Shown piece after piece: positions 16,142 through 64,000 of a stretch of DNA of 64,000 nt. The notes beneath the pieces are model-generated. The model saw only the letters and a program-made list of their open reading frames with translations, searched no databases and was not told the DNA's origin. Numbering within the stretch: the stretch's first letter is position 1; the number at the start of each line of letters is the position of its first letter. Source of the DNA: Nemertoderma westbladi (Eukaryota; Animalia; Xenacoelomorpha); assembly GCA_032718475.1 (NCBI GenBank), contig JAUCBJ010005785.1:1-64000 (forward strand), read 5' to 3'. Both the position numbers and the translations under genes were made by a program.

Positions 16142-16209
16142 ATTTGTTTTCATTTCTTGTGGGACTCTTGTTGTTCGGTACATGTCTACTATGATGGGAT
16201 AGATGAGCT

Positions 16210-39810: not shown

Positions 39811-41487
39811 ATGCAGATTGAGTTGCAATCGGCGTTAAATTTTTTGATGACCTATCTGTACGATAGGTTGCCCCGACGACGGATTTACCTATTCGCCGAG
39901 GAGTTGGAAAAAAATCTCGTCCAAAAATTCGAAGGCCACTGGTACCCGGATAAACCCAGTAAAGGTTCGGGGTACCGGTGCTTGAAGTTCGGTCTGACTA
40001 ACCTCGACCCCGTGGTCATTGTGTCTGCTAAATCGTGCGGGGTGGACCTCCAGGACATCCGTTCGTTCATTCCGTTGGATCTGTGTATCTGGGTGGACCC
40101 GGGGGAGGTTACCTATCGCGTGGGGGGCGACCGCGCTCCGCTCCAGCTCCTCTACTCGTACGACGGAACCGGCCCCTCCGTCGCCGTCGACCGATCCGAC
40201 TCGCCCGGAAGTTGGTCCGCGAGTCCGGCTAAATCATCCTCGTCCAGCTCCTCCGCCGGTAGCATGGCCGACGGTCTGACCCCCTCCGAAGAGCTCCGCC
40301 CGTGCAGCCCTTCGAACCACCAGCTATTCACCCAGAAACCGGCCTCGCTAACCTTTAGTAGCGACGCTTTCATTGCGACTAAGTTCGGTTCCACTAAAGT
40401 CCGGAATTTCTCATCGGCACCCCAGTTTATGGCGACGCCTTGCGCCGCTCCGGTAGATGTCCATTCTCCGTTGACGAATCAACAACTTCTCTTCCCATTC
40501 CAGGATCGATCCAATCTTCCCCCCATCAACCAGAACCGCCCGACTTTCTTCCCTTCTTCCTCAGAGGATCTCGAAAATTTTCCCCCCAGGGAGCGAGACT
40601 TGCAGCCGATTCAGCCTCCCGTCTCCCGCGACTTTCCCCCTGCTCAGGCCCCAATCTCCCGGGACTTTCCCCCTGCTCAGGCCCCAATCTCCCGGGACTT
40701 TCCCCCTGCTCAGGCCCCTATCTCCCGGGACTTTCCCCCTGCTCAGGCCCCGGTCTGCTACTCACGGCCGGAAGCGGTTACCTTTTCAGCAGACGAATTC
40801 ATATCCACGAAGTTCGGCTCCACCAAATCGCGAAAGAACGCGCGCCGGGCCGACACTTCGGCCATGTCGCAGGATGAGTTCCACGCCTATATGCGTCGTC
40901 ACATCGCCCAGTTGCATAGCAACCGGCAACGCAGTATGTTGGCTGTGGCTGCGGCAAACTGCGCCGCCATGGGAGGTCTACCCGCTTACCAGTTCCCTTA
41001 CTCAATGAACAAAGATATGGTTATGCAAGCTTTATTCGAGCAGATGTATCTCAATAACAAATCCAATGACGTCACAGAAGCTAATAGTATGACGTCATCG
41101 TATGGGGAATCTTGGCCATTGTCATCCTACGGAGATGGGTTCACTTACTCGTCGGAAGGGGGCGTGTTCGGTTCGTTGAAGAACGCTGGAGGCGGTACTA
41201 ACTGCGGTTGGATGGACGTGCCTGCGCCTTCCATGCCATTCGGATCCTCGCCGCACTCGTTCGGTTCCACGCAGCCGTCGTGGCTCGCGCCCCCTCTGGT
41301 CTCGCCGCCCCACCGTGCGGCTCCAGCGGTGGCCCCCACCGGCCCGGTTGGTCTGCTGTCCGCTGGGGGCGCTACCGAAGCACCTGGCTACGGCGCCGGT
41401 CCCGGTCGTCTCACTCGTAACATCTTCGATTCGACGCAGTATGACACCCCGTTGCACCAGTCCATCGCCGCTGTCATCGCGAACTAA
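39811..41487 (+). CDS. TOB: Tob (BTG/Tob family antiproliferative, CCR4-NOT adaptor), single coding exon
   Basis: MQIELQSALNFL..LPRRR..HWYPDKPSKGSGYRC (box A), LCIWVDPGEVTYRVG (box B), Tob-type TKFGSTK motif. ATG at 39811 (track starts at GTG 39790). Confidence 0.93.
   Translation: MQIELQSALNFLMTYLYDRLPRRRIYLFAEELEKNLVQKFEGHWYPDKPSKGSGYRCLKFGLTNLDPVVIVSAKSCGVDLQDIRSFIPLDLCIWVDPGEVTYRVGGDRAPLQLLYSYDGTGPSVAVDRSDSPGSWSASPAKSSSSSSSAGSMADGLTPSEELRPCSPSNHQLFTQKPASLTFSSDAFIATKFGSTKVRNFSSAPQFMATPCAAPVDVHSPLTNQQLLFPFQDRSNLPPINQNRPTFFPSSSEDLENFPPRERDLQPIQPPVSRDFPPAQAPISRDFPPAQAPISRDFPPAQAPISRDFPPAQAPVCYSRPEAVTFSADEFISTKFGSTKSRKNARRADTSAMSQDEFHAYMRRHIAQLHSNRQRSMLAVAAANCAAMGGLPAYQFPYSMNKDMVMQALFEQMYLNNKSNDVTEANSMTSSYGESWPLSSYGDGFTYSSEGGVFGSLKNAGGGTNCGWMDVPAPSMPFGSSPHSFGSTQPSWLAPPLVSPPHRAAPAVAPTGPVGLLSAGGATEAPGYGAGPGRLTRNIFDSTQYDTPLHQSIAAVIAN
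40618..40752 (+). repeat. Coding tandem repeat in Tob, 4 x 33 bp (ISRDFPPAQAP)
   Basis: Near-identical units ATCTCCCGGGACTTTCCCCCTGCTCAGGCCCCA. Confidence 0.9.
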
Positions 41488-42987
41488 ATCTAATTCGGTA
41501 ATTTCGATTGATCATCGTTTATTGTGGGAACTTTAATTTTTTAGCGATTGAAACGTGTTTCGGATTATTTTGCAATAATAATTACAGTAGAAATTATGTA
41601 AGCGGATTAAGGTTTATTATAATATACTTCGTAGCGCCTATAAACGGAATTTTATTTTTTATTTCGAGTTGTTTGTTGAGTCTTTGTGAGTGAGAGTCAT
41701 AAAAAGTGAGATATAATTTTGTATTTTTTACTTGCTATGTAATTATCATGATGTTTTTTTTACTACATCAGTAGTAGGTAAGGTACCATATGAGCAGACC
41801 TGTTTGTCTGTTGTGTTGCAGTTTTTTTATACAGTGTTTATTGTAGGTGCGTATTTTACAATTTGACGACAATATTAATACCGAGTGAGTGGCCAATGAT
41901 GGCCTTGATGTTTTATTGCAATTGTTTAATTCCATGTTGCCTTGCAGTGCCGATCATATCTACAGTGTCAAACACAATATAATTAATTACTCTATTAATG
42001 TTTCCTTATTTACTTGCTATATACTTTATATCACTGTTCCATTTTATATCTTTACAATTGGACTGTTGTGATTCGTATAATCTTTGTTTACATTACATAC
42101 GTTCCTTTGTCTACTTCTATGCAATTTTATAGCTTTTATGTTATTATCTTTAGTTAAAAAAACGGTTTATACTGAAGTTTATCGTTTTCTTACAATCGAG
42201 AAATCCAAAAAAAAAACATTCAAAAATTTCGATTCTGTGTTTCGTGCCCATTCGAATTGTGTCAAGAATCCAATCCAAACATCAAATAATATATATAGCT
42301 AGGGATTAGTTATAAATATACGAAATTTGTTTAATCCGCCGTCCCACAGATATAAATATAGCTGACCAGATATCTATGTGTCACTCTGCTAATGTTTAAG
42401 TTTAAGATTAGGTTCGTTCCCTGAGGTTCCATTACAATATTAATAATTACCAAGTCTAGTAAACCCATTTACTACAGTTTCATAAACCATATACCAACCA
42501 TATCATCAATGTTATAAAAAAATTATAGTTATAATAGAGATCTATTCTACCATAACGTATTAAAAAATATCAAAAAGTTATCGTATCAAAAAGTATCAAA
42601 ATCAAATCGTATCAAAAAGTTGAACTTTTTTTACTATTCTCGGGGCATTTTATTATTATCAGTAAGAGATAATATTGAAAAGTGCCTTACTCAATGTTAA
42701 ATAATTTAGTGTTCTCGAATAGTTTTAACGTAACTAAAGAACCACTTAACAACTAAAACCAATATTGGACATTGAGTTCCGTTTTGAAGTTCGCCTTGCA
42801 GATACTAAAGTTGCAATAACTTTTGAGTTTTGAGTGTGTGAATGGATTTTGCTCAAATTAAGTGCAAAGCTTTTCTACGTCGATGCTCTTTCAACACATG
42901 TAATATAATTTAAGAAATTCCACCAAAAATTTTTTAATTTACTTTTTCACCTGTGTAACACGCTGAGATAACTCACCACCAAATATG

Positions 42988-43412
42988 ACTCCCCAGTCTT
43001 CTCAGCCTAGGCTGAGAACACTCCCCAGTCTTCTCAGCCTAGGCTGAGAACACTCCCCAATTTTCTCCCTAGATTTCTTAATTAACGGAAAGGAGCAGGT
43101 TACAGTAGCGGGCTTTTCTAACCAAAATAATAAACGATAACTCAATAAGGATATAGGTTACAGTTTTATTTTTGCAATATACGAAAATAACACAGGTACG
43201 GATATGAAGTACGAACAAATTATGAATGAGTCATCCTCAGCCTAAGGGGAGTGTTCTCAGCCTAGGATGATATATCTGGGGAGTGTACTCAGCCTAGGCT
43301 GAGACGACTGAGGAGTGTTCTCAGCCTATGCTGAGCTGACTGAGGTGTGTACTCAGCCTATGCTGAGACGACTGAGGAGTGTTCTCAGCCTATGCTGAGA
43401 CGACTGAGGAGT
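42988..43412. repeat. Inverted arrays of about 31-bp units built on palindrome CTCAGCCTAGGCTGAG
   Basis: Two units plus a partial at 42988-43059 and about six in opposite orientation at 43236-43412, around a core holding the dispersed AGGAGCAGGTTACAG repeat. Confidence 0.75.
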
Positions 43413-43935
43413 GAGGTACAGGCAGTTGTAGAATACGTGTCCCCTTTGAGAATAATATAAACTGGAACTGATACGGGGGGGGGGGGGGGGTTCTTGTACA
43501 GCTAAATAAAATACATTATATGTGTTCATGTTCAATGCGGTGAGGTTGGCATCGTCACCCTTGGGAAGGTGGGAATACTACATTTAATATAATAATATAG
43601 AAATCTAAACTAAAGATAACTTATTTCGAAAAAATATCGTTAATTAAAGGCCACAGAAGGCTTGCTAGACCCATCGTAGGGCAAGGGTCTCGGTAATTCT
43701 ATGAAAGAAACTAAAGTGTTGATTATTGTTATCGAAGAGTCTCTGCTTAATTGATCTAAAACGCTTGATGAAATGGTCGGAATTCATTCATGCTACTTAC
43801 AACGATAGTACACATACACAATGCTTTCATGCGTTTAGGCCACAGCGTATTTAAATTCTCCAATAAACGAATTAACTGCAGCATAAATAAATAAAATAGA
43901 TTATTTCGACTAGTGATTCCCCTTATTGTTATTAG

Positions 43936-44077
43936 GATGTTTGAGAATGATGAGGGACTACAGCCTGCTGGTTATGCCTTCCTGCAAGAGTTCCTGAGCA
44001 ACCAAAGTCATCAACCACAACACTACGGCGATAATCTAGAAGGATGTGGGTTGGAAAACGAGACTGCAGTTAGAAAG
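43936..44077 (+). CDS. ZZEF1: ZZEF1-like protein, internal exon A
   Basis: TTAG|G ATG..MFENDEGLQPAGYAFLQEFL..HYGDNLEGCGLENETAVRK|GTGAGT. Joins in phase 0 to AFYLLV at 52698, recalling the ZZEF1 LEGCG..YYQLV segment. Confidence 0.68.
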
Positions 44078-44495
44078 GTGAGTCGTAACTCGTAAAAATT
44101 CTATAAATTCCGTTATTCTTCGTTTATTATCAATAATATACAGTAATGAACTGGACTATTTCTAGAAGCACATCAGTTAACTCTACAAAGCACCTTCAAC
44201 CAACATAACCAACCAGCATTGCACCATAATTAATTAACAAACTATTTAAATACGTAACGAATTAATACAGAACGTGTACAAATCAATTTAGACATCTAAA
44301 ATAAATTGCATTACACTAACTCATATCGAGAATCATATCGCATGGGAATATATCCTGTTAGAAGACAACCATTTCTATTTTACACTGACTTTTACACCAC
44401 ATAATATAGAAATAAAGTAAGACATACGAAATAATTATATAAAATAAATATTATGGCCAATGAAATAAATAATCGTGCAATATAACATTTATCCG

Positions 44496-47400
44496 TCACA
44501 AACTATGGATTCTTCTTCGATTATAAAATGTAGGTAGAATATAGGCAGCAGTCTTGTGGAACCAAATCCGTAAATACGGTAGAACAATATAGGCCAGAAC
44601 GATAAGGAACATGATATTAATGCGAAACAATAACAGCTGTCTGTACTTGGACCATTCCCTTAGGTCGTCTACATAGAGGAATCTATTGCGGTAGTCAGCT
44701 GATAGTTCGAACGGGGATGGTTTGGGGTACAGAGTCTCTAGTAGATCCTTAACAATAGCCTTGACAACATGGGCATCAGCATGGTTGTGGTCGATGTTAT
44801 CGTTTAGGCATATAAACTTCTTCGGTCGTCTACGGATATCGTCCATCTGGTCAATGACCTTGGAGACGTTGCTACGGATCATTTTAAAGGCAACTTGTTC
44901 ATCGTCTGTTGTTTCAAACTTATATTTATTGCGGTTAGTGTAAGAAGTGGATTCGTTTATCTTATTAAGGAGAGGTTCGCATGATTGGAAGACTGCTCTG
45001 GTCACCTGAGGAAGGATTGGGTTGTAGTAGGTCTCCTCGGGTCTATGTGGGTATTCCTCTGGGTTGGTTTTGGTGCAGTTCGATATGATGTACTCCATGT
45101 TGGTCAGACTCCCCATGGTTAGAGGGAATGGGTAAAGTCTAACGGCGAGGACTCTTAACTCCCTGTCGGAAAGTACACCGGAGTCATCAGTGTCGAGGTC
45201 TTCGAAAATTTGAGAGAAATTTAGTTTCACTTTCGCTTCCATTAGGTAGTAATAGTAGGAGAAAGCGAATTGCATATCTTCAGAGTGTCGCAGCTTATGG
45301 GAGGATGTCTTGTGGAATTCCTCGGGGAATGTTTCGTGAAGTTCCTCGACTATATCTCTGTTCGCGAAGTGCGGCATATGTGCGGGAACTGATCGGGCCG
45401 CGTGTCCGAACGCTCGGTTGTACAACGAGTTCACGTAGAGCAAGGAATCACTGAAGCTATCCAGCAGTAACCGACCCCGCCCTCCACGAGTTCTGTACGA
45501 CTCCTTAAGAGCATCGCGTTTATATTTTTCCTCCACCAACGAATCATAAGTTCCCAGTTTCTCCCAAGGCAAACTCCCATAGTTCTCTACTAATTTTGTC
45601 TTCGTTATTTTTTCAACGTAATTTTCACTTAATGATAAAATATCTCTGCTCAATTTACTTTCAGTTTTATAAGAATCGTTAATTAGTGATGTATTTAATG
45701 ATTTACTTACATGATGTGATATGTTTGTATTTAAATTTAATGCACTTAATGATAATGGTATGATAGTCTCACTGTTATTGTTTACATTGAAATTGGAAGT
45801 GATAATTGATTGATATGGTGATAATAATGTGTTAAGGTAACGCGTGTATCCCAAACGAGTTAATTCCTCGTTCGCGTATTTAGTTTGCAGCTGTTTGACG
45901 TGGCGGAGTACCCCGTCGGGTAGACCCCGAGTGTCTAGGTAGTCTGGGAGACCCGAGGGAGCCCCACCCGCGTACAGCGAGCGGTTCACCTTGGGGCCCA
46001 GACTCCCGTCCGGGATGTCCGGGATACTGATGACGTCATCCGCGCCCATCTCCGTCTCCTTGGCGACCAGGAACTCCCCCCGCGAGGTATCGCAGACCAC
46101 GGACCACCTCGTCGCCACGGTTACGTTCCCCGCGTCCGCCGTTACCAGGAAGTCAACCCGAGTGGAGCCGACGTTGGCGTAGAGAACGACTGTCATCGAA
46201 CGGGAGGGAATGTTGACTCCGACGACTCTCACTATATCCCCGTTGCTATCGTAACTCGCTGTTACTACGGTAGCGTTCGCGTCTATGACATCATTGAGAT
46301 CGATGTAGAAGACGCCCCAACCGAGAGGCGCCACTTCCGGTTTCGTGACGTCATTGATGGTGAGTTTGTTTATTAAGTGGAGCTGTGGACCGCAGTCGCC
46401 GGCGTCGTAACCGCAGACCGGGCGGTTGCATGCGGGGTCGCAGTAGCGGTCCGCTACCCAGCCGTCGAAGCACCCGGGCGCGCACATTGAGTCCTCCGAG
46501 TGCGCGCCCGCGTAACCGCCGCGCCCAGGGCGCGCGCCCAGACAGTCGCCGCCGTCGTAGTCGCAACGCGAGCGGTTACAGACGGCATCGCAGTAGCCGT
46601 CGGCGAGCCAAGCCGCTGCGCAGCCCTCGGCGCAACTCGGGACCGGCCACGTCAGATACACGCGCTGCCCGCTGGAGGGCGCTAGGAAGTCGGACGGGCG
46701 GATCGGGGCCCCGAAGAAGACGTCGTCGTTGAGGTAGATGAAGTGGTTGGAGAGGCCGGGGATGCGGTGGAGGTTGGCCTCGATGGCGGGCGAGCTGAAG
46801 GTCGGGAGGTGGGAGCGGTTCGCGAAGATTTCCGCGTGAGTGACCAGGACGACCCGCGGGTGCTCCAGGTTCAACCAGTGCGGGATCTGGCCGTTGGTTA
46901 CCACGTAGACGCGACGCACCCACGGGGCGTAGCGAGCGACCGAGCGTAGCGAGTAGCGGAGTTCCTCGTTGTCCTGGAAGCGGTTGGACTCACTTCGATC
47001 GTCCGTCGGGAGCGCGTCGAGGTCCCAGACTAAACTCGCCGTGTTTATACGTCGGTCCCACTCGTGCGCGGTCACGAACGCGGATAGGTCCTCCGTGCGT
47101 GACGTCACCAAGGCGGCGTTCGCATGGACGATGACGTCAGCAGAGACCGGAAGTCCGTCGGCGCGGAGTCGGTTTCGGACCTGATCGGCCCGAGTCGTTA
47201 CGTTCTCTACGATAAACGCGTGGCTCAGTAGGACGCTGTGAGGCGCTAAATAGTTCGTGGTCACGTATCCCTGAGAGGCGTGCACCGCTGCACCGTTAAT
47301 ATCCACCGGTGAACTCATCGCTTTTAGTAAACTCGATTCCAACGCGAATTCCATGACGGTAATTTGGAATTGGAATTCCCCGGGGACGGTTTTGTTGTAC

Positions 47401-47870
47401 ATAGTCAACGCCGGCATAAACTGTTTGTATTTGAGTTGAAGTTCCGACAGTTTAATGTGGCCGGGGACGGCCGGTTGAAGAATCAGCATGTTTGTTGGGA
47501 TGCAATGCGAATAAGGACAGAGGGAGTCGGTTTGTTCCACTCCGTTCTGCTCGCGTTCCATAACGCGTCGCACTTTACGTAGTTCCACTAGCATCCGCGG
47601 ATCCGACCCGTTGACCCACGTGTAAACAACGTCAACCGGTAACGGACCCCCTATGTCGTCCCATACCGAACGATCAGCTATGTTGTCGCGGTAAACTTGG
47701 ATAATATAATCCCCACTGTTGTTACCCATATGCTGCAAAGATACATGAGATACGGAGAGGAAATACATTGCGGAAAAGGCAAACACAATGATTCCAGCGA
47801 ATATTAAATAAATACTGTAGCGACGAGATAAACATGAGTAGGTGTGTTTTTGTATAAGTTTATGTAGCAT
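44496..47870 (-). CDS. GNPTAB: GlcNAc-1-phosphotransferase alpha/beta precursor, intronless
   Basis: N-terminus MLHKLIQKHTYSCLSRRY plus TM; Stealth CR1 VDVVYTWVNGSD, CR2 RFQDNEELRYSLRS..FIYLNDD; two Notch/LNR repeats; S1P-like site RLLL|DSFSDSL; EF-hand DTDDSGVLSDRE; CR4 KFICLNDNIDH; C-terminal TM. In-frame upstream ATG at 47984. Confidence 0.95.
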   Translation of the reverse strand: MLHKLIQKHTYSCLSRRYSIYLIFAGIIVFAFSAMYFLSVSHVSLQHMGNNSGDYIIQVYRDNIADRSVWDDIGGPLPVDVVYTWVNGSDPRMLVELRKVRRVMEREQNGVEQTDSLCPYSHCIPTNMLILQPAVPGHIKLSELQLKYKQFMPALTMYNKTVPGEFQFQITVMEFALESSLLKAMSSPVDINGAAVHASQGYVTTNYLAPHSVLLSHAFIVENVTTRADQVRNRLRADGLPVSADVIVHANAALVTSRTEDLSAFVTAHEWDRRINTASLVWDLDALPTDDRSESNRFQDNEELRYSLRSVARYAPWVRRVYVVTNGQIPHWLNLEHPRVVLVTHAEIFANRSHLPTFSSPAIEANLHRIPGLSNHFIYLNDDVFFGAPIRPSDFLAPSSGQRVYLTWPVPSCAEGCAAAWLADGYCDAVCNRSRCDYDGGDCLGARPGRGGYAGAHSEDSMCAPGCFDGWVADRYCDPACNRPVCGYDAGDCGPQLHLINKLTINDVTKPEVAPLGWGVFYIDLNDVIDANATVVTASYDSNGDIVRVVGVNIPSRSMTVVLYANVGSTRVDFLVTADAGNVTVATRWSVVCDTSRGEFLVAKETEMGADDVISIPDIPDGSLGPKVNRSLYAGGAPSGLPDYLDTRGLPDGVLRHVKQLQTKYANEELTRLGYTRYLNTLLSPYQSIITSNFNVNNNSETIIPLSLSALNLNTNISHHVSKSLNTSLINDSYKTESKLSRDILSLSENYVEKITKTKLVENYGSLPWEKLGTYDSLVEEKYKRDALKESYRTRGGRGRLLLDSFSDSLLYVNSLYNRAFGHAARSVPAHMPHFANRDIVEELHETFPEEFHKTSSHKLRHSEDMQFAFSYYYYLMEAKVKLNFSQIFEDLDTDDSGVLSDRELRVLAVRLYPFPLTMGSLTNMEYIISNCTKTNPEEYPHRPEETYYNPILPQVTRAVFQSCEPLLNKINESTSYTNRNKYKFETTDDEQVAFKMIRSNVSKVIDQMDDIRRRPKKFICLNDNIDHNHADAHVVKAIVKDLLETLYPKPSPFELSADYRNRFLYVDDLREWSKYRQLLLFRINIMFLIVLAYIVLPYLRIWFHKTAAYILPTFYNRRRIHSL

Positions 47871-48841
47871 ATCGGTTGCAGAGTATCGATGCGAATTTCT
47901 GCTACCGTTACCGCCGCTACCAGTAATTATTTCCCAGCTTGTTAAACAGCGACATCGCTGTTCTATCCAACCGCGAATAAACATGGAGATTACCGGTAGC
48001 TGTGTTCGCTACTGTCTATTCCAGTATTCGGGCAGTCGGATTCGCGTGCTTCAAATCTAAAATTGCCAGACTTCGATGTGTCATTGTCAAACCCAATCCT
48101 GTCTTTATAATAATTATGATGTGTGAAGTACACCAAGTAAGTAAGCCCCTAAGCAGTAAGCACCGGAGTTTGGGACATTATACTGTTATAGGCCTACTGC
48201 ATGCATAGTGCAGTAGTGCATGAAGTTGAAGTACAGGTACCGGCAGACCAGTAGTGCTGGTATTGTGTTGGGTAGGGCGAGATCTACCTAGTTATGCCTA
48301 TTGCAGTATTGAAAAATTATTTACTTTCAATTTCGGTTAGTTTCAGTTATTGGTAATTGATCATTGTTAGTACCAGAATGCGTAATGTTGTAGCTTGTAG
48401 GTAAATCAGTACAAAACTAAATCACCTGTTTTAATGTTTAATCTAAGTGATTTTTACGGTGGAAAATTTGGGTCAATTAATTTTTTTATTTTTTCATTCC
48501 AGCAAATTCTAAATGCTGAAATGATGTTATATTTATATTCTTAAATTGTTACTTTTTCGCTCGAAAATACCCCAAATTCGTGAGAAATTTTCCCTACTGA
48601 AAAAGTAACGAATCTCGAATGGTACTTTGGGGAACACTGAGGCGATACAGGAAATAGGACTTTACATTAATATGCCAACGCGAGCCACGATTGGGCTCGC
48701 GCTGCAATCTCAGTAACTACAAACTAGTAGTACAGATACTGTCACATATCAGCGAATCTTTATATTATTATTGAAATTACACCATGGTTGTGGTAAAATT
48801 GGCAAACATCTCAGTACTTAAAAGTAATAAATAAAGTATAT

Positions 48842-48976
48842 AAAATAAATTAAAATTAATTAAACTAGTTAAGGAGCCTAGTATAGAAAATAAATTAAAA
48901 TTAATTAAACTAGTTAAGGAGCCTAGTATAGAAAATAAATTAAAATTAATTAAACTAGTTAAGGAGCCTAGTATAG
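48842..48976. repeat. Tandem repeat, 3 x 45 bp
   Basis: AAAATAAATTAAAATTAATTAAACTAGTTAAGGAGCCTAGTATAG three times, abutting the LINE fragment. Confidence 0.9.
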
Positions 48977-48989
48977 AAAATCTATCTAC

Positions 48990-49490
48990 AAATTGAAAAC
49001 GGACGTTTGCTTAATGTACCGCGTAACGATAAATTATGCCAGCTCTGTAATGTCCAAGAAGTGGAGGATGAATACCACTTTGTACTTAAATGTCCGCTCT
49101 ATCATGATCTACGCATTACATTTTTGGCAGTAAGATATCATAGAAATCCTTCATTGGTCAATTTTCTTGAACTCCTCAGTCTGACGGCGGATTGCAAAAT
49201 TAAGCAGTTTGGTGTGTTTTTATACCACGCCTTTAAATTACGACTGGAGGCTAAAACCTAGTTAGTATTACGTGTGTTGAATGTTTGTGGTGTGAGTGAG
49301 AATGTGTTGGAAGTTCTACGGTTTAGATTGTTATTATATATATAATATATATTATGTTCCTACTTTATGTACTGGGTTCATCTATTTATTTATTTTCTAA
49401 ATGTATATGTACTCCGGTATTGTAGCGTGCAGTTGGTAATACTTTGCTCTCAACAATAGCCTTAATTGGCTTGTGATTAAAAATAAACAA
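48990..49490 (+). mobile_element. Non-LTR retrotransposon 3' end (RTEX-like C-terminal CCHC finger and 3' UTR)
   Basis: GRLLNVPRNDKLCQLC..VEDEYHFVLKCPLY..LR; TG-rich 3' UTR ending in AATAAA. Confidence 0.75.
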
Positions 49491-50460
49491 ACCAAGAAAT
49501 CCATCAGATTTAACAGCACTGCAAATCATTGAAACCATGTTATTGAAGTTTTGGAATGACTTCGAAATGACTAAAAACTACCGCGATTCAAAGAAAATTA
49601 TTTTTAATAATTACAGTATGTACTGTAGCAAGATTAAAGATTACTTCTTATAAATTGCATCATTACGTTTATTTTATTCACTTTGTATTTCTTAACAATA
49701 TTAGAAAGCCCGCAAGCTGGCTGGAAGGAGCCCGGGGGAAAAATAACTATGTCAGTCAGCAGTAAGTAAACTAAAATTGTCTAAACTGCAAGGCGTGAGG
49801 CTAGCTGACTTTGTGGCTCGCCCCACATAATAAAAAATGCAACTTAGCTACCACTAACAAAAATATATTATGAAGCAAATAATTTCATTATCAAGCACGT
49901 TTACAAGATATAAGATACGATTACCAAATATTTATAAAAAATTCCCATGATGGACAACCAGATAAATAACAACGATTAGAGCCAAATAACAAATTTAGTT
50001 TCCTTCTATAGGTATCGCCCCGTCGTCAAGCGGAATATCTCTTCCCAGTGAATCCTATGTGAATATGTAATATAGGTATTCCTGCTAAGTTAGGCAGTAG
50101 GCCAGAGCGGGCTCCTTAAATACATGCAACTACTGTATTATAGTGTAGATCAACTATAAAACATAGGCAAACCACAGTGAGTAACAACTGCAATAGGACA
50201 CAACACACTGCTTTGTGTAACTAAAATTCATTCTCCTGATCCACCCCTTAACATAGCAGAGTGAGTAACCTTATTGTAGATATACCCTTAGGAAGCACTG
50301 GGAGAGCAATCAGCTTATGGGGTAATACATTAGAAACCAACAGCTTATGTGTGAGTAAACATTGCCTTTCCTTATAGCCTACTAGTAAAACTTGGCAACC
50401 AACACGTTTTACTATGACTGTGTATAACATATTAAGCCATATTTCATCATGAACACCTAT

Positions 50461-50559
50461 ATTTATTATCCTGATATTTTGTTATTTTTCCGGAACAGGA
50501 AAGTTCCTGTTCCTCGGGTTAAAATAACCGGAAAATAACAAAATATCAGGGTAATAAAT
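50461..50559. repeat. Short hairpin/inverted repeat
   Basis: ATTTATTATCCTGATATTTTGTTATTTT..CCGG mirrored by CCGGAAAATAACAAAATATCAGGGTAATAAAT. Confidence 0.75.
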
Positions 50560-51088
50560 GTGTTGTTACCAACTAATCTCGGAAAAAATAACCAACTACA
50601 TCATGTTTATATCAAGAAGCCACTATTAATTTACAATATACCAAACCCATCCAGATACCCTAGATTTCTAAAAGGGTTTTGTTTGGGGGTAGAAATATAA
50701 AAATGGGGCTTGGAAATTTTGGGGGGAGACACTAATTACAAATTATTAAATAACACGAGCGGCCAAGGCATAAAATAAATAAATAACATGAGCGGGCCTA
50801 TGCCTAACAATTTCCCCCTGGCGGGTAAACTGGAATAAAGTAAAAAAAACAAATAAATATAATAGATTAAATAATAAAGTAATATAGAATAAATGATGGA
50901 AAATACTAGAATTTATTTCCATTCCACAGTATGTATAGGTAACACGATGATAGTGATGGGAGTCTACTCGGGACAGCTGAGAGCGTTACATCGTGTGGAA
51001 TTGGGTGAGACACAATGTAGACAGAACCATTCGTGTGAGAATAGGTGAATGTAGGCTTACCATACTGTATACGATGTACGAATTTAAC

Positions 51089-51266
51089 TTAAGAATAAAC
51101 TTACGTATTTCAGTATATGAGAAAAAAGTAGAACATTTTGTTTCTCAATATTCTCTCAACCCTTTATTAACCTCGCTGAAGCTCGGTAAATAAAATGCCT
51201 CGAGAATAACGAAAAAAAGTTCTACTTTTTTTCCCATGTACCTAATAAATAATTATTTATTCTTAA
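51089..51266. mobile_element. Small MITE-like inverted repeat
   Basis: TTAAGAATAAA..GAAAAAAGTAGAAC mirrored by GTTCTACTTTTTT..TTTATTCTTAA. Confidence 0.5.
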
Positions 51267-52697
51267 ATTGTTACTTTTGCGCCCGAATTTAGATCAAAAT
51301 CTGGAGAAAATATTTAACTTTTTTTCCTGGCGAAAAAAGTAAAATATAATATTTTTGGTGGAATTTCTTAAATTGTATTACCGTTGTACCGGTACCGTAC
51401 GTAGTTCTACAGCATTGTGCATGTGCAGTATGTAAACCTACGTTATTTACAACTGGTAGGTACAAGTCTGTCTGTCTGGTACGTTCGTCTTTACAGTAGA
51501 ATCGTAGAAACTGTAAGAGAATGTGTAGAGAATGGTATTCCTGCCATGATCAGGATGCTGCTGTCCATAATTGTCAAATACCGAAAGTAAAAGATCTCTG
51601 AGTAGGCTGAATTGAGTGTGCAATCTGAACTTGTAGTGTAGGCCTACCAGTACTGCATTTCCCGTTTAGTTTGCCAGTACCGGTACATTAAATTATTGCC
51701 CAATATGCTCTGTTCTGTAGGCGTACCGGTCAGGTAGGTTTTGTAGTTGCAAGGCAGTGATGTGATTGAGACATTAAAGGAAGCTGTGGTACCACTACCG
51801 GTACTGTACGATGCATGCAGTCAGTCTACCTACAATCTGAACTGAAAACATACCATAGGCCTACGATAGTCTTATTCTTATAACTTTCACTTTCACTCAT
51901 GTTAGTAAAGGTAACCGGTACCCTAAGCTAACTAATGTATTCACAACACGGCAAACAGGCATAAATATAATTTCAACATGCAGATTGCAGATACCGGAGT
52001 GTTGAAAAATAAATGTGTTATTTTTTCCTAGGACTAAAATAACACTATTTTTAGATAGGTTATCATTGCGATTGTGTTATTTTTTCCGGGATTGGTTGGT
52101 AACAACAGCTGTTATTTTACCATTGCTTTTAATTTCGCGACAAAATAATGTCAAAAAACTAAATATATCGAATACCACACATATAATCGATCTGAAATTT
52201 TGTAACGCGATTATGAACCACCAAAGCAATGTACTTGCAAAATTTCATCAAAATCGCCAGGCAGGAAGTGCCTGAACTTGGATAATTATCAGTCAGTGTT
52301 AAATATCCTGAGATTTTTACAGAAAGTATCCCTGAGATTCTTACAGTAAGTATCCCGCTGTCAAGCGGGCTCCTAATTACGTAAGTAAACATGGCTTAAA
52401 CAATGGCATTTACAGTATTTAACAAATTTGTATAATACTTTATATGCTGAGCGAGATAATTAGTTTACCCACAAATTCCGATCTAAGTCATTGTCGGTTT
52501 ATCTGAAGCGATTGGTTGAGTTGACGTTCAATATGGTTAAGATCGAAATTTCTGGGCAAAAACCTCAAACGTTGACATACCTAAGGTAGCTCAGCCTAAG
52601 GCTGTATCATCTACTGTACAGTATTTGCTCAAGTATTACTTTTAATATTTTATATTCTGCATCCACTTAAACTAATATAAATATATTGTTATTTCAG

Positions 52698-52791
52698 GCA
52701 TTCTATTTATTAGTACGGCGCGTCGTTAAAGTTGCTAACAAAATCCTCGACTCTGATGGAGAGCGTTCTTTACTATCTGAGCACACAATTG
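52698..52791 (+). CDS. ZZEF1: ZZEF1-like protein, internal exon B
   Basis: TTTCAG|GCA..AFYLLVRRVVKVANKILDSDGERSLLSEHTI G|GTAGGT. Phase 1 joins CT at 61627 to give Ala. Confidence 0.68.
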
Positions 52792-55700
52792 GTAGGTTTA
52801 TTATGAGGCAGACACACAATTGGTAGGTTTATTATGAGGCAGACACACAATTGGTATGTTTATTATGAGGCAGACACACAATTAGTAGGTTTATTATGAG
52901 GCAGACACACAATTGGTAGGTTTATTATGAGGCAGACACACAATTGGTATGTTTATTATGAGGCAGACACACAATTGGTAGGTTTATTATGAGGCAGACA
53001 CACAATTAGTAGGTTTATTATGAGGCAGACACACAATTGGTATGTTTATTATGAGGCAGACACACAATAGGTAGGTTTATTATGAGGCAGACACACAATT
53101 GATAGGTTTATTATGAGGCAGACACACAATTGGAAGGTTTATTATGAGGCAGACACACAATTGGTATGTTTATTATGAGGCAGACACACAATAGGTAGGT
53201 TTATTATGAGGCAGACACACAATTGATAGGTTTATTATGAGGCAGACACACAATTGGAAGGTTTATTATGAGGCAGACACACAATTGGTAGGTTTATTAT
53301 GAGGCAGACACACAATTAGTAGGTTTATTATGAGGCAGACACACAATTGGTATGTTTATTATGAGGCAGACACACAATTGATAGGTTTATTATGAGGCAG
53401 ACACACAATTGGAAGGTTTATTATGAGGCAGACACACAATTGGTAGGTTTATTATGAGGCAGACACACAATTGGTAGGTTTATTATGAGGCAGACACACA
53501 ATTGGTATGTTTATTATGAGGCAGACACACAATTAGTAGGTTTATTATGAGGCAGACACACAATTGGTATGTTTATTATGAGGCAGACACACAATTGGTA
53601 GGTTTATTATGAGGCAGACACACAATTGGTAGGTTTATTATGAGGCAGACACACAATTGGTAGGTTTATTATGAGGCAGACACACAATTGGTAGGTTTAT
53701 TATGAGGCAGACACACAATTAGTAGGTTTATTATGAGGCAGACACACAATTGGTATGTTTATTATGAGGCAGACACACAATTGATAGGTTTATTATGAGG
53801 CAGACACACAATTGGAAGGTTTATTATGAGGCAGACACACAATTGGTAGGTTTATTATGAGGCAGACACACAATTGGAAGGTTTATTATGAGGCAGACAC
53901 ACAATTGGTAGGTTTATTATGAGGCAGACACACAATTGGTAGGTTTATTATGAGGCAGACACACAATTGGTAGGTTTATTATGAGGCAGACACACAATTG
54001 GTATGTTTATTATGAGGCAGACACACAATTGGTAGGTTTATTATGAGGCAGACACACAATTGGTAGGTTTATTATGAGGCAGACACACAATTGGTAGGTT
54101 TATTATGAGGCAGACACACAATTGGTAGGTTTATTATGAGGCAGACACACAATTGGTAGGTTTATTATGAGGCAGACACACAATTGGTATGTTTATTATG
54201 AGGCAGACACACAATTAGTAGGTTTATTATGAGGCAGACACACAATTGGTAGGTTTATTATGAGGCAGACACACAATAGGTAGGTTTATTATGAGGCAGA
54301 CACACAATTGGTATGTTTATTATGAGGCAGACACACAATTAGTAGGTTTATTATGAGGCAGACACACAATTGTTAGGTTTATTATGAGGCAGACACACAA
54401 TTGGTATGTTTATTATGAGGCAGACACACAATTGATAGGTTTATTATGAGGCAGACACACAATTGGAAGGTTTATTATGAGGCAGACACACAATTGGTAG
54501 GTTTATTATGAGGCAGACACACAATTGGTAGGTTTATTATGAGGCAGACACACAATTGGTATGTTTATTATGAGGCAGACACACAATTAGTAGGTTTATT
54601 ATGAGGCAGACACACAATAGGTAGGTTTATTATGAGGCAGACACACAATTGGTAGGTTTATTATGAGGCAGACACACAATTGATAGGTTTATTATGAGGC
54701 AGACACACAATTGGAAGGTTTATTATGAGGCAGACACACAATTGGTAGGTTTATTATGAGGCAGACACACAATTGGTAGGTTTATTATGAGGCAGACACA
54801 CAATTGGTATGTTTATTATGAGGCAGACACACAATTAGTAGGTTTATTATGAGGCAGACACACAATTGGTAGGTTTATTATGAGGCAGACACACAATAGG
54901 TAGGTTTATTATGAGGCAGACACACAATTGGTATGTTTATTATGAGGAAGACACACAATTGGTAGGTTTATTATGAGGCAGACACACAATTGGTATGTTT
55001 AATATGGGGCAGACACACAATTGCTAGGTTTATTATGAGGCAGACACACAATTGTTAGGTTTATTATGAGGCAGACACACAATTGGTAGGTTTATTATGA
55101 GGCAGACACACAATTGGTAGGTTTATTATGAGGCAGACACACGATTGGTAGGTTTATTATGAGGCAGACACACAATTGGTAGGTTTATTGTGAGGCAGAC
55201 ACACAATTGTTAGGTTTATTATGAGGCAGACACACAATTGCTAGGTTTATTATGAGGCAGACACACAATTGGTAGGTTTATTGTGAGGCAGACACACAAT
55301 TGGTATGTTTATTATGAGGCAGACACACAATTGGTAGGTTTATTATGAGGCAGACATACAATTGGTAGGTTTATTGTGAGGCAGACACACAATTGGTATG
55401 TTTGTTATGAGGCAGACACACAATTGGTAGGTTTATTATGAGGCAGACACACAATTGGTAGGTTTATTATGAGGCAGGCTCACAATTGGTAGGTTTATTA
55501 TGAGTCAGACACACAATTGGTAGGTTTATTATGAGGCAGACACACAATTGGTAGGTTTATTATGAGGCAGACACACAATTGTTAGGTTTATTATGAGGCA
55601 GACACACTATAGGTAGTTTTATTATGAGGCAGACACACAATTGGTAGGTTTATTATGAGGCAGACACACAATTGTTAGTTTTATTATGAGGCAGACACAC

Positions 55701-58700
55701 TATTAATTGGTAGGGTTATTATGAGGCAGACACACAATTGTTAGGTTTATTATGAAGCAGACACACAATTGGAAGGTTTATTATGAGGCAGACACACAAT
55801 TGTTAGTTTTATTATTAGGCAGACACACTATTAATTGCTAGGGTTATTATGAGGCAGACACACAATTGGTAGGTTTATTATGAGGCAGACACACAATTGG
55901 TATGTTTATTATGAGGCAGACACACAATTGGTAGGTTTATTATGAGGCAGACACACAATTGGTACGTTTATTATGAGGCAGACACACAATTGGTAGGTTT
56001 ATTATGAGGCAGACACACAATTGGTAGGTTTATTATGAGGCAGACACACAATTGGTAGGTTTATTATGAGGCAGACACACAATTGGTATGTTTATTATGA
56101 GGCAGACACACAATTGGTAGGTTTATTATGAGGCAGACACACAATTGGTAGGTTTATTATGAGGCAGACACACTATAGGTAGGTTTATTATGAGGCAGAC
56201 ACACTATTGGTAGGTTTATTATGAGGCAGACACACAATTGTTAGTTTTATTATGAGGCAGACACACAATTGGTAGGTTTATTATGAGGCAGACACACAAT
56301 TGTTAGTTTTATTATGAGGCAGACACACAATTGGTAGGTTTATTATGAGGCAGACAACACATTGGTAGGTTTATTATGAGGCAGACACACAATTGGTATG
56401 TTTATTATGCGGCAGACACACAATTGGTAGGTTTATTATGAGGCAGACACACAATTGGTAGGTTTATTATGAGGCAGACACACAATTGGTAGGTTTATTA
56501 TGAGGCAGACACACAATTGGTAGGTTTATTATGAGGCAGACACACTATAGGTAGGTTTATTATGAGGCAGACACACAATTGGTAGGTTTAATATGAGGCA
56601 GACACACAATTGGTAGGTTTATTATGAGGCAGACAACACATTGGTAGGTTTATTATGAGGCAGACACACAATTGGTATGTTTATTATGCGGCAGACACAC
56701 AATTGGTAGGTTTATTATGAAGCAGACACACAATTGGTAGGATTATTATGAGGCAGACACACTATAGGTAGGTTTATTATGAGGCATACACACTATTGGT
56801 AGGTTTATTATGAGGTAGACACACAATTGTTAGTTTTATTATGAGGCAGACACACAATTGGTAGGTTTATTAAGAGGCAGACACACAATTGTTAGTTTTA
56901 TTATGAGGCAGACACACAATTGGTAGGTTTATTATGAGGCAGACACACAATTGGTAGGTTTATTATGAGGCAGACACATAATTGGTAGGTTTATTATGAG
57001 GCAAGCTCACAATAGGTAGGTTTATTATGAGGCAGACACACAATTGGTAGGTTTATTGTGAGGCAGACACACAATTGGTAGGTTTATTATGAGGCAGACA
57101 CACAATTGGTAGGTTTATTATGAGGCAGACACACAATTGGTAGGTTTATTGTGAGGCAGACACACAATTGGTAGGTTTATTATGAGGCAGACACACAATT
57201 GGTATGTTTATTATGAGGCAGACACACAATTGGTAGGTTTATTATGAGGCAGACACACAATTGGTATGTTTATTATGAGGCAGGCACACAATTGGTAGGT
57301 TTATTATGAGGCAGACACACAATTGGTAGGTTTATTTTGAGGCAGACACACAATTGGTAGGTTTATTGTGAGGCAGACACACAATTGGTAGGTATATTAT
57401 GAGGCAGACACACAATTGGCAGTTTATTATGAGGCAGACACACAATTGGTAGGTTTATTATGAGGCAGACACACAATTGGTAGGTTTATTATGAGGCAGA
57501 CACACAATTGGTAGGTTTATTATGAGGCAGACACACAATTGGTAGGTTTATTATGAGGCAGACACACAATTGGTAGGTTTATTATGAGGCAGACACACCA
57601 TAGGTAGGTTTATTATAGGCAGACACACAATTGGTAGGTTTATTATGAGGCAGACACACAATTGGTAGGTTTATTGTGAGGCAGACACACAATTGGTAGG
57701 TTTATTATGAGGCAGACACATAATTGGTAGGTTTATTTATGAGGCACACACACCATAGGTAGGTTTATTATGAGGCAGACACACAATTGGTAGGTTTATT
57801 ATGAGGCAGACACACAATTGGTAGGTTTATTATGAGGCAGACACACAATTGGTAGGTTTATTTATGAGGCACACACACCATAGGTAGGTTTATTATGAGG
57901 CAGACACACAATTGGTAGGTTTATTATGAGGCAGACACACAATTGGTAGGTTTATTGTGAGGCAGACACACAATTGGTAGGTTTATTATGAGGCAGACAC
58001 ATAATTGGTAGGTTTATTTATGAGGCACACACACCATAGGTATGTTTATTATGAGGCAGACACACAATTAGTAGGTTTATTATGAGGCAGACGCACAATT
58101 GGTAGGTTTATTATGATGCAGACACACAATTGGTAGGTTTATTATGAGGCAGACACACAATTGGTAGGTTTATTATGAGTCAGACACACAATTGGTAGGT
58201 TTATTATGAGGCAGACACACAATTGGTAGGTTTATTATGAGGCAGACACACAATTGGTAGGTTTATTATGAGGCAGACACACAATTGGTAGGTTTATTAT
58301 GAGGCAGGCTAACAATTGGTAGGTTTATTATGAGGCAGACACACAATTGGTAGGTTTATTATGAGGCAGACACACAATTGGTAGGTTTATTATGAGGCAG
58401 GCTCACATTTGGTAGGTTTATTGTGAGGCAGACACACAATTGGTAGGTTTATTATGAGGCAGACACACAATTGGTAGGTTTATTATGAGGCAGGCTCACA
58501 TTTGGTAGGTTTATTGTGAGGCAGACACACAATTGGTAGGTTTATTATGAGGCAGACACACAATTGGTAGGTTTATTATGAGGCAGACACACAATTGGTA
58601 GGTTTATTATGAGGCAGGCTCACATTTGGTAGGTTTATTGTGAGGCAGACACACAATTGGTAGGTTTATTATGAGGCAGACACACTATAGGTAGGTTTAT

Positions 58701-59017
58701 TATAAGGCAGACACACAATTGGTAGGTGTATTATGAGGCAGACACACTATTGGTAGGTTTATTATGAGGCAGACACACAATTGGTAGGTTTATTATGCTT
58801 CAGACACATAATTGGTAGGTTTATTATGAGGCAGACACACAATAGGTAGGTTTATTATGAGGCAGACACACAATAGGTAGGTTTATCATGAGGCAGACAC
58901 ACAATTGCTAGGTTTATTAAGAGGCAGACAACACTATTGGTAGGCTTATTATGAGGCAGACACACAATTGGTAGGCTTTTGATAGACGGATACACACTTG
59001 GTGGGTTTATTATGAGG
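52782..59017. repeat. Intronic satellite, 29-bp unit, about 215 copies (6.2 kb)
   Basis: Unit ACACACAATTGGTAGGTTTATTATGAGGCAG-type monomer with period 29; the first unit overlaps the end of exon B. Confidence 0.97.
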
Positions 59018-61626: not shown

Positions 61627-61808
61627 CTCTGATACTTCATTTGTTGTGCATTGTATGGAAACCTAAGGATATGGGGCTGATTTGTGATATTGAGTTGCCG
61701 GAGTTGCTACTAAAGAGCTCGCTGCTCGGAATAGGTCCTTCCGCCGACTCCAAGAACTACTCGGCCCTCGACCATAGAACCAATCGACCCTACTTGAACA
61801 ATGAAACG
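61627..61808 (+). CDS. ZZEF1: ZZEF1-like protein, internal exon C
   Basis: TTTTAG|CT..ALILHLLCIVWKPKDMGLICDIELPELLLKSS..NET|GTGAGT; resembles the recalled ZZEF1 segment ALLHLLDMGWEPND..DIQLPDLL. Confidence 0.75.
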
Positions 61809-61997: not shown

Positions 61998-62102
61998 GAA
62001 TTAGAGTCACAAAGCCGACATCTGGCTTGGTTGGAGCAGGCCAAGGGGTCCTTCTCCGATTGGTTTGGGGCCATAGAAGAATTATCTCCTGATGAAGCTA
62101 AG
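61998..62102 (+). CDS. ZZEF1: ZZEF1-like protein, internal exon D
   Basis: CTTTAG|GAA ELESQSRHLAWLEQAKGSFSDWFGAIEELSPDEAK|GTTGGT, phase 0-0, 105 bp. Confidence 0.72.
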
Positions 62103-62308: not shown

Positions 62309-62453
62309 GATAGGCACTTTTTCGTATCTCGATTCGGCGATCAACTTCCTTGTAAGAGCAGTTGTAACAATTGTCTTTCGGACCTCAGGGATCGAACACG
62401 ATACCGTTGTTTGGACTGTAAGGATACGGACTTCTGTGGGAACTGTTTCACAA
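62309..62453 (+). CDS. ZZEF1: ZZEF1-like protein, internal exon E (ZZ-type zinc finger)
   Basis: TTCTAG|DRHFFVSRFGDQLPCKSSCNNC..RYRCLDCKDTDFCGNCFT A|GTAAGT; ZZ finger CxxC..RYRCxxCxDxDxCxxCF. Confidence 0.78.
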
Positions 62454-63126: not shown

Positions 63127-63251
63127 GAATTCTTCCTTGTATGCGGTAATTTCACATGAAAGCTCCATCTTTTGAGCCGGACCACAGTTGCTATGGTTGT
63201 AGTATTCCCTGCCACAATAGTTTCACCGTATGTTTCGGCCTCGCTTCGCAA

Positions 63252-64000
63252 GTATGTTTGATTGTCTATTTTTATTGAGTCGGTTTATTGTGTAAGTATG
63301 TTTGTTTGTCTATTTTTATTGAGGCGGCCTATTGCTTAAGTATGTTTGATTATCCATTTTTATTGAGTCGGCCTATTGTGTAAGTATGTTTGTTTGTCTA
63401 TTTTTATTGAGGCGGCCTATTGCTTAAGTATGTTTGATTGTCTGTTGTTATTGAGTCGGCCTATTGTGTAATTTTTTTGATTGTCTGTTTTTATTGTGTC
63501 GGCCTATTTTGTGAGTTTGTTTGATTGTCTGTTTTTATTGAGTCGGTTTATTGCTTAAGTATGTTTGATTATCTGTTTTTATTGAGTCGGTTTATTGTTT
63601 AAGTATGTTTGATTATCCATTTTTATTGAGTCGGCCTATTGTGTAAGTATGTTTGTTTGTCTATTTTTATTGAGGCGGCCTATTGCTTAAGTATGTTTGA
63701 TTGTCTGTTGTTATTGAGTCGGCCTATTGTGTAATTTTTTTGATTGTCTGTTTTTATTGTGTCGGCCTATTTTGTGAGTTTGTTTGATTGTCTGTTTTTA
63801 TTGAGTCGGTTTATTGCTTAAGTATGTTTGATTATCTGTTTTTATTGAGTCGGTTTATTGTTTAAGTATGTTTGATTATCCATTTTTATTGAGTCGGCCT
63901 ATTGTGTAAGTATGTTTGTTTGTCTATTTTTATTGAGGCGGCCTATTGCTTAAGTATGTTTGATTGTCTGTTGTTATTGAGTCGGCCTATTGTGTAATTT
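63252..64000. repeat. Satellite, 44-bp unit with about 263-bp higher-order period; runs off the window
   Basis: Unit GTATGTTTGATTGTCTATTTTTATTGAGTCGGTTTATTGTGTAA; the ATTATCCATT variant recurs at 63340, 63603 and 63866. Confidence 0.93.

What the first reader, a model, noticed from the sequence alone, without database searches (positions are those of the whole stretch)
44078..52697. Complete intronless GNPTAB nested antisense within a ZZEF1 intron
Seen: exons 43936-44077 and 52698-52791 have canonical splice sites and join in phase 0 as ..LEGCGLENETAVRK|AFYLLVRR.., continuing through three more phase-compatible exons to a ZZ finger. The 8.6-kb intron holds the entire GNPTAB ORF, whose stop is 418 bp from the donor and whose candidate AATAAA (44123-44128, minus strand) is about 45 bp from it. 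Known: GNPTAB is the usually multi-exon mannose-6-phosphate tagging enzyme. Inference: a retro-relocated housekeeping gene inside another gene.
Basis: partly seen in the sequence, partly recalled or inferred. Interest (0 to 1): 0.8.

Follow-up and report, generated by a model that had tools for sequence, protein, structure and literature searches.

The report
Intronless GNPTAB nested in ZZEF1 intron
In an invertebrate animal, the gene for the enzyme that tags lysosomal proteins (GNPTAB) is one unbroken reading frame lying backwards inside an intron of the ZZEF1 gene; it is likely a working gene that arrived as a copy of its own mRNA, a well-known kind of arrangement, and unbroken GNPTAB genes also occur in other animals.

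Summary
Observation confirmed. Five plus-strand exons join without a stop into 222 aa that align collinearly with 53 of 53 ZZEF1-family proteins, gap-free across the 44077/52698 junction. The 52698 exon ranks first among 3,221 candidate acceptors. The 8,620-bp intron holds a full-length, single-ORF GNPTAB with all 12 tested active-site residues; it lacks the dimer cysteine Cys70. No RNA or genome was available, so splicing, expression and copy number are untested.

'Retro-relocated' is plausible (about 0.55), not shown. There are no insertion scars, nearby TAK1, Prospero and Tob are also intron-poor, and 20 of the 33 best-ranked related loci carry GNPTAB as one ORF, mostly in an unrelated lophotrochozoan clade, none beside ZZEF1. 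Nested genes and parent-replacing retrogenes are common in animals. The scan noted similar nested retrogenes in other genomes, but not this pair.

Open point: ZZEF1's first ~1,520 residues are missing from the 44 kb upstream. Either several more genes are nested in a larger intron, or ZZEF1 is split. New member of a known kind; interest 0.3.

The parts
43936..44077 (+). ZZEF1 exon upstream of the host intron (aligns to about residues 1523-1571 of full-length ZZEF1)
   Evidence: Splice sites; tblastn hit by 53 of 53 homologs, best E 7e-9; profile 37.7 bits
44078..52697 (+). ZZEF1 host intron, 8,620 bp, phase 0, GT-AG
   Evidence: gap-free alignment across the junction; no Rfam family at gathering score in 41400-52800
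44123..44128 (-). Candidate poly(A) signal of GNPTAB, 45 bp from the host donor
   Evidence: Only minus-strand AATAAA between stop and donor; at least one arises in 32% of shuffles, so weak
44496..47870 (-). GNPTAB coding sequence, one ORF of 1,124 aa from the ATG that aligns with homolog starts; an in-frame ATG lies upstream at 47984
   Evidence: Stealth CR1-CR4 and two LNR repeats above Pfam cut-offs; 37-39% identity over 96-100% to animal GNPTAB; PDB 7s05 E 1e-221; active site, RxxL/D cleavage motif and two membrane helices kept
47871..48300 (-). Likely 5' untranslated and promoter region of GNPTAB (inferred from position only)
   Evidence: No strong acceptor-like site on the minus strand between 48600 and the ATG in a simple pattern scan; start site and any 5' UTR intron untested
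52698..52791 (+). ZZEF1 exon downstream of the host intron
   Evidence: Top-scoring of 3,221 candidate acceptors; too short for the profile search alone
52782..59017 (+). 31-bp tandem repeat, about 201 copies, made of the last 10 exon bases plus the splice donor ('mirage' type)
61627..61808 (+). ZZEF1 exon 3 of the five seen
   Evidence: Profile 20.7 bits, E 5.9e-6; hit by 38 of 53 homologs
61998..62102 (+). ZZEF1 exon 4 of the five seen
   Evidence: In order and in phase; weak alone (5.0 bits; 14 of 53 homologs)
62309..62453 (+). ZZEF1 exon with the first ZZ zinc finger
   Evidence: PF00569; 53 of 53 homologs, best E 5e-10

Best explanation
A complete GNPTAB coding sequence sits as one unbroken reading frame on the opposite strand inside an 8.6-kb ZZEF1 intron; it is likely a working gene with its own promoter, and it likely arrived long ago as a reverse-transcribed copy of spliced GNPTAB mRNA that would since have replaced the parent gene. 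The two genes would be transcribed separately. GNPTAB mRNA would start inside the intron, run towards the upstream ZZEF1 exon and end shortly before it. ZZEF1 pre-mRNA would read through the whole intron and lose it by ordinary GT-AG splicing, since an antisense passenger offers no same-strand exon to mis-splice. The product is predicted to be a Golgi precursor with two membrane helices, cut at its RxxL/D site and transferring GlcNAc-1-phosphate to lysosomal hydrolases as in mammals, but without the Cys70 disulfide between subunits. Shown: both gene identities, exon order and phase, intact ORF, conserved residues. Inferred: splicing, expression, promoter, poly(A) site, RNA-mediated origin, loss of the parent.
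For: Host model. Passenger intact and collinear end to end with 11 homologs; all 12 active-site residues named in PMC9388126 passages are kept, although overall identity to any relative is only about 40%, which points to long purifying selection. ZZEF1 and GNPTAB have diverged in proportion (0.34 vs 0.44 and 0.39 vs 0.52 against inter-phylum means), so the long branch looks lineage-wide rather than a decaying copy. One RNA-mediated event explains both the lack of introns and the odd location. Human GNPTAB has 21 exons; some related loci are multi-exon (L037, L064). The host keeps old introns: ORF fragments from other contigs start or run off at the same two boundaries as the ZZ exon (inferred from protein ends). 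Across bilaterians 15.7% of gene translocations were classed as retrotranspositions and 80-85% of these lost the parent (PMC13689697 section 25). No ZZEF1 match lies beside GNPTAB in any of 80 related loci (flanks mostly short).
Against: No poly(A) remnant or flanking direct repeat. Parent locus and copy number unchecked. Intron-poor genes cluster in this window: TAK1 has one intron, Prospero and Tob are single ORFs, so intron loss may be lineage-wide and unrelated to the move. 20 of the 33 best loci have single-ORF GNPTAB, and L003 and L005 have three coding pieces, so the gene may have been intron-poor before it moved; this sample is biased towards intron-poor genes. In Drosophila only 17% of opposite-strand nested duplicates arose through RNA (PMC3814207 passage). 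Cys70, kept in 11 of 11 aligned homologs and 32 of 32 loci with the motif among L001-L033, is glycine here.
Confidence: 0.55

Rival explanations
1. GNPTAB lost its introns where it stood (or was already intron-poor) and was later moved into the ZZEF1 intron as DNA, by transposon-aided transfer or local rearrangement. It works the same way; only the history differs.
For: Single-ORF or nearly single-ORF GNPTAB occurs in an unrelated lophotrochozoan clade and in animals outside the bilaterian clade. Neighbouring genes here are intron-poor, and TAK1 keeps one intron. DNA-based translocations outnumber retrotranspositions about 5:1.
Against: It needs two steps where retroposition needs one. The host and, by unverified scan notes, many other genes of this genome remain multi-exon, so loss looks gene-wise rather than scattered.
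Confidence: 0.3
2. The nested gene is an extra retro-duplicate with a narrower role, and an intron-containing parent GNPTAB still does the housekeeping job elsewhere in the genome.
For: Nested genes in Drosophila are often young, tissue-restricted duplicates. Loss of the otherwise invariant Cys70 could reflect relaxed or changed constraint.
Against: Divergence is proportional to that of ZZEF1; all 12 active-site residues are kept; most bilaterian retro-translocations lost the parent.
Confidence: 0.1
3. The nesting is not functional or not real: the ZZEF1 exons are a relic or split remnant, or the contig is mis-assembled.
For: No ZZEF1 exon for the first ~1,520 residues is found in window 1-43935, and the exon after the first ZZ finger was not convincingly found before the window ends. 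No RNA support was obtainable.
Against: Five exons over 18.5 kb keep open frames, canonical splice sites, compatible phases and collinear homology. A mis-join would need two breakpoints that leave consecutive exons in order and in phase.
Confidence: 0.05

Closest known systems
Opposite-strand nested genes of animals (Lee and Chang 2013, PMC3814207; Assis 2016, PMC5174743; Schultz et al. 2021, PMC8527503; passages read)
   Same: A whole protein-coding gene inside one intron of a large multi-exon host, on the opposite strand (71% of Drosophila cases; 37% of those are single-exon). About 10% of Drosophila genes are in nested pairs, and 2,357 nested genes were counted in a ctenophore.
   Different: The passenger is long (3.4 kb of coding sequence against a median near 0.9 kb in Drosophila) and is an old housekeeping enzyme, whereas typical nested genes are short, fast-evolving and tissue-restricted.
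Orphan retrogenes that replaced their parents (Ciomborowska et al., PMC3548309, abstract and outline; Lamb et al. 2026, PMC13689697, abstract and section 25)
   Same: Intronless, intact, conserved copy of a gene that is multi-exon in human, at a location not seen for it in the related loci.
   Different: Loss of the parent is not shown here, no insertion scars remain, and the intron-free state recurs in other animals.
GNPTAB, GlcNAc-1-phosphotransferase alpha/beta precursor (PDB 7s05; PMC9388126 and PMC8913297 passages)
   Same: Stealth CR1-CR4, two LNR repeats, EF-hand-region homology, two membrane helices, cleavage motif, 12 of 12 tested active-site residues.
   Different: Single coding exon; Cys70 replaced by glycine; DMAP1-binding domain only faint (E 0.058, below cut-off).
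Single-ORF GNPTAB of a lophotrochozoan clade in metagenome contigs (for example L010, L022, L024, L031)
   Same: Whole protein in one reading frame in genomic contigs of up to 17 kb.
   Different: Separate clade in the tree; Cys70 kept; neighbours include RPP40 pieces, with no ZZEF1 match.
ZZEF1 (zinc finger ZZ-type and EF-hand domain-containing protein 1)
   Same: 222 aa collinear with the segment leading into the first ZZ finger in 53 of 53 family members, 42 of which carry the ZZEF1 name.
   Different: The N-terminal half (APC10/DOC region) and the second ZZ finger were not found in the window.

Membership tests
GNPTAB | Stealth conserved regions CR1-CR4 in order with two LNR repeats | tested here: met
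   all above Pfam cut-offs
GNPTAB | Substrate-binding and catalytic residues (human R322, S385, E389, N406, D407, D408, H956, H959, R986, Q992, N1151, N1153) | tested here: met
   12 of 12 kept; residue list from PMC9388126 passages; mapped through mammalian homologs P0109 and P0061
GNPTAB | Two membrane helices and a site-1 protease site between alpha and beta | tested here: met
   Hydropathy peaks at residues 60-78 and 1117-1135; R, L and D of the site align; cleavage itself not tested
GNPTAB | Cys70 inter-subunit disulfide (conserved feature, not the family definition) | tested here: not met
   Glycine here; cysteine in 11 of 11 homologs and 32 of 32 loci checked
GNPTAB | Phosphotransferase activity on lysosomal hydrolases | not testable with these tools
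   Needs an enzyme assay
ZZEF1 | Collinear homology outside the ZZ finger, leading into ZZ1 | tested here: met
   among the 40 ZZ-exon hits only P0138, P0160 and P0129 align well upstream of the ZZ exon
ZZEF1 | N-terminal APC10/DOC half and second ZZ finger in the same gene | tested here: inconclusive
   Not found in the window; may lie beyond its ends
Nested intronic gene | Whole coding sequence lies within one intron of another gene | tested here: met
   44496-47870 within 44078-52697
Nested intronic gene | Host intron is spliced and both genes are transcribed | not testable with these tools
   No RNA run listed
Orphan retrogene | No introns in the coding sequence while orthologs have them | tested here: inconclusive
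   Single ORF here; human has 21 exons, but many animal loci are also single-ORF
Orphan retrogene | Poly(A) remnant or target-site duplication | tested here: not met
   expected to erode in old retrogenes, so weak
Orphan retrogene | Parent gene lost; new chromosomal position | not testable with these tools
   No genome held; the ancestral-chromosome table of PMC13689697 could not be read

The most novel reading that the evidence does not exclude
ZZEF1 in this animal is a host for a whole cluster of relocated, intron-stripped core genes. Besides GNPTAB, the preceding ZZEF1 intron would span more than 44 kb and carry Tom5-like, TAK1, Prospero and Tob on the same strand plus two small membrane-protein genes on the other. 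This would point to a lineage in which old housekeeping and developmental genes were moved wholesale by retroposition into the introns of a few intron-rich genes, with ZZEF1 transcribed through several same-strand poly(A) sites.
Probability: 0.3. Interest if true: 0.55.

Novelty: new member of a known kind. Interest (0 to 1): 0.3.

Why it matters
On its own this is a clean, ordinary case of a nested gene, useful mainly for annotation: gene finders are likely to cut ZZEF1 here. It adds one data point that even a 3.4-kb housekeeping gene can live intron-free inside another gene, and the related loci show that GNPTAB has been intron-free in more than one animal lineage. It would matter more if the upstream genes are nested too, because that would make a testable natural case of a long host transcript passing several same-strand genes. 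The lost Cys70 is a natural variant for asking whether the alpha-alpha disulfide is needed.

Tried and rejected
No whole genome is held, so copy number and the parent locus were not checked. No RNA holder was listed for 43900-48100, so no reads were laid. The word-based protein search with the ZZ exon gave no hit; the HMMER search of cluster representatives did. The ESM Atlas gave no usable hit for exon 3. The exact GNPTAB protein is not in the collection. Rfam found nothing at gathering score in 41400-52800.

Upstream ZZEF1 exon: anchored scans of window 1-43935 gave a best score of 12-16 for 15-residue tests, against 11-12 for the minus-strand control and about 35 for true homologs, and nothing in longer tests; rejected as noise. 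A ZZ-like stretch at 37631-37705 (5.2 bits, E 0.29, out of order) was treated as chance. A sixth exon near 63162-63251 scored below controls and was left unresolved.

An in-frame intron in the AT-rich stretch near 45560-45850 was considered and rejected: the frame is open and total length matches molluscan homologs. A motif-density scan as a promoter marker used motifs chosen after looking, so it is not used as evidence. Intron mapping in related loci was crude; I take from it only that L005 and L064 both have an intron near window residue 898, with phase calls that differ. Trees were the quick and FastTree versions; they put the window protein on a long branch among bilaterians and do not name the phylum. 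The second tree used 24 of 80 loci and 16 named proteins.

Literature: ZZEF1 plus GNPTAB gave 6 papers and GNPTAB plus intronless gave 1, none on this topic by title or abstract start; searches added no report of this locus. The supplement of PMC13689697 could not be read and may say whether the two genes share an ancestral chromosome; the supplements of PMC10565955 were listed but not read.
Full report
Observation. The minus strand holds a stop-to-stop frame at 44496-48008. Its ATG at 47870 aligns with the starts of homologs; another in-frame ATG lies at 47984. On the plus strand, exons 43936-44077, 52698-52791, 61627-61808, 61998-62102 and 62309-62453 all have AG/GT ends and compatible phases and give 222 aa without a stop. 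The first intron is 8,620 bp, the GNPTAB stop is 418 bp from the donor, and the AATAAA is at 44123-44128.

Passenger gene. Pfam finds Stealth CR1-CR4 and two LNR repeats above cut-off. The best of 1,934 homologs are animal GNPTAB proteins at 37-39% identity over nearly the whole length, and solved GNPTAB 7s05 matches at E 1e-221. The alignment with 11 homologs is collinear from the first membrane helix to the last. All 12 active-site residues named in PMC9388126 (passages) are kept, as are the cleavage-site motif and both membrane helices. One invariant residue is lost: Cys70, the inter-subunit disulfide (PMC9388126 and PMC8913297 passages), is glycine here but cysteine in 11 of 11 homologs and in 32 of 32 loci among L001-L033 that have the motif.

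Host gene. A HMMER search with the ZZ exon gave 40 hits. Three of them align well with the joined peptide upstream of the ZZ exon; one is named ZZEF1-like. Searching with the longest of the three returned 53 long proteins, 42 of them named ZZEF1. The joined peptide hits 53 of 53 at 29-38% identity, E 2e-35 to 6e-18, without a gap at the exon 1/exon 2 junction. These 53 were selected through a ZZEF1 query, so they are not an unbiased panel. As a control, 3,221 open AG sites on both strands were scored against the ZZEF1 columns that follow exon 1: 52698 came first at 26.9, the next at 12.6. The interval that holds GNPTAB is therefore one intron by homology. Splicing was not seen, because no RNA run was listed.

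How it likely works. GNPTAB would be transcribed from a promoter inside the intron towards the upstream ZZEF1 exon and end near 44100. The AATAAA is the only candidate but is weak evidence, since 32% of shuffles contain one. ZZEF1 would splice over it. Four plus-strand AATAAA sites lie 220-390 bp after the host donor; their use would truncate ZZEF1, so they are presumably suppressed (inference). Both proteins are more diverged than usual between phyla, in similar proportion, which fits a fast-evolving lineage rather than a decaying copy. Trees put the protein on a long branch among bilaterians without a close relative. A scan note on another piece of this genome mentions a match to a Nemertoderma transcript; I did not test that. 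A draft Nemertoderma westbladi genome averages 3.3 exons per gene (PMC10565955 passages).

Origin. Retroposition explains both the missing introns and the location in one step. Human GNPTAB has 21 exons (PMC7555117 passage). Across bilaterians 803 of 5,104 translocations were classed as retrotranspositions, with 80-85% of parents lost or not identified (PMC13689697 section 25), and parent-replacing retrogenes are known in human (PMC3548309 abstract). Against it: no poly(A) remnant or flanking repeat, and no way to look for a parent. A metagenome scan confirmed 439 relatives and kept the best 80. Among the top 33, 20 carry the whole protein in one ORF, and L003 and L005 have three coding pieces. 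Eight of the single-ORF loci were placed in the tree as one clade within lophotrochozoans, apart from the window protein; L002 and L021 fall with animals outside the bilaterian clade. Some sit in 14-17 kb contigs beside RPP40 pieces, so they are genomic. None of the 80 loci has a ZZEF1 match, though flanks are mostly short. This sample favours intron-poor genes, so it shows that the state recurs, not that it is usual. In the window, TAK1 has a single intron and Prospero and Tob are single ORFs. I put retroposition with parent loss at 0.55, intron loss followed by a DNA-level move at 0.3, an extra duplicate at 0.1 and a relic or artefact at 0.05.

Comparison with what is known. About 10% of Drosophila genes are in nested pairs, 71% of nested genes are antisense, and 37% of those are single-exon (PMC3814207 and PMC5174743 passages). 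A ctenophore has 2,357 nested genes (PMC8527503 passages). This locus is a member of that class by the one feature testable here. It differs in being a long, old housekeeping gene. Searches for ZZEF1 with GNPTAB and for GNPTAB with intronless returned no paper on it by title or abstract start. The scan's notes list several nested intronless genes in other genomes but none for this pair.

Loose end. Exon 43936 corresponds to about residue 1,520 of a roughly 2,900-residue protein, yet no earlier ZZEF1 exon is found in window 1-43935 by tblastn, profile search or anchored scan. In a control, the profile found 113 of 130 exon-sized pieces of the N-terminal half of four held-out homologs, and 82 of 138 and 64 of 132 after 30% and 40% extra mutation; it found 3 of the window's own 5 exons at E below 1e-5. 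The roughly 30 expected pieces are therefore not in these 44 kb. Either an intron of more than 40 kb also holds Tom5-like, TAK1, two small membrane genes, Prospero and Tob, or ZZEF1 is split (exon 43936 begins one base before an ATG), or the contig is mis-joined. Same-strand nested genes in Drosophila are mostly single-exon (73%), which fits the first option but does not prove it.

Verdict. Real, correctly described, and a new member of a known kind. The retro origin is likely but unproven. Interest 0.3.

Noticed in passing
window 1-43935: No exon for the first ~1,520 residues of ZZEF1 lies in the 44 kb upstream of 43936; the genes there may be nested in a very large ZZEF1 intron, or ZZEF1 is split.
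   Followed up: partly
window 52782-59017: About 201 copies of a 31-bp unit made of the ZZEF1 exon end and its splice donor; matches the 'mirage' repeats described in amphioxus (PMC3087553 passages). Reading on past the first donor meets a stop within 11 codons.
   Followed up: partly
window 1712-1864 and 1967-3934 (+): A 50-aa single-ORF Tom5-like gene (Pfam E 0.002, below cut-off) ends 102 bp before the start of TAK1/MAP3K7, which has only one coding intron (2498-2944); operon-like spacing.
   Followed up: partly
window 23665-25872 and 39811-41487 (+): Prospero (whole homeo-prospero domain) and Tob are each one ORF. Tob contains a short proline-rich tandem repeat.
   Followed up: partly
window about 6918-7324 and 12918-13130 (-): Two related small genes with a membrane helix followed by a cysteine run (Shisa/CYYR1-like by recall; the second, the only one scanned, had no Pfam hit). 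The first is split over two frames, so a pseudogene or a sequence error.
   Followed up: no
window 47649-47651 (-): GNPTAB has glycine at the otherwise invariant Cys70 dimer-disulfide position.
   Followed up: partly
loci L009-L031 except L021: A lophotrochozoan clade with single-ORF GNPTAB in genomic contigs, next to RPP40 pieces in L022, L024 and L025: a probable independent intron-free origin.
   Followed up: partly
window 63250-63997: A 44-bp tandem repeat that begins at a donor-like site after about 125 bp of unique sequence; may mark a further, diverged exon, which did not score above controls.
   Followed up: partly
window 37631-37705 (+): A short ZZ-finger-like stretch, weakly hit by 21 of 53 ZZEF1 homologs (best E 0.4) and out of gene order; probably chance.
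   Followed up: partly
window 5480-6420, 16200-23420, 26500-27580: Three more satellites upstream; the one ending near 27570 is followed by a perfect splice-donor hexamer, so they may mark exon edges of an unrecognised gene.
   Followed up: no
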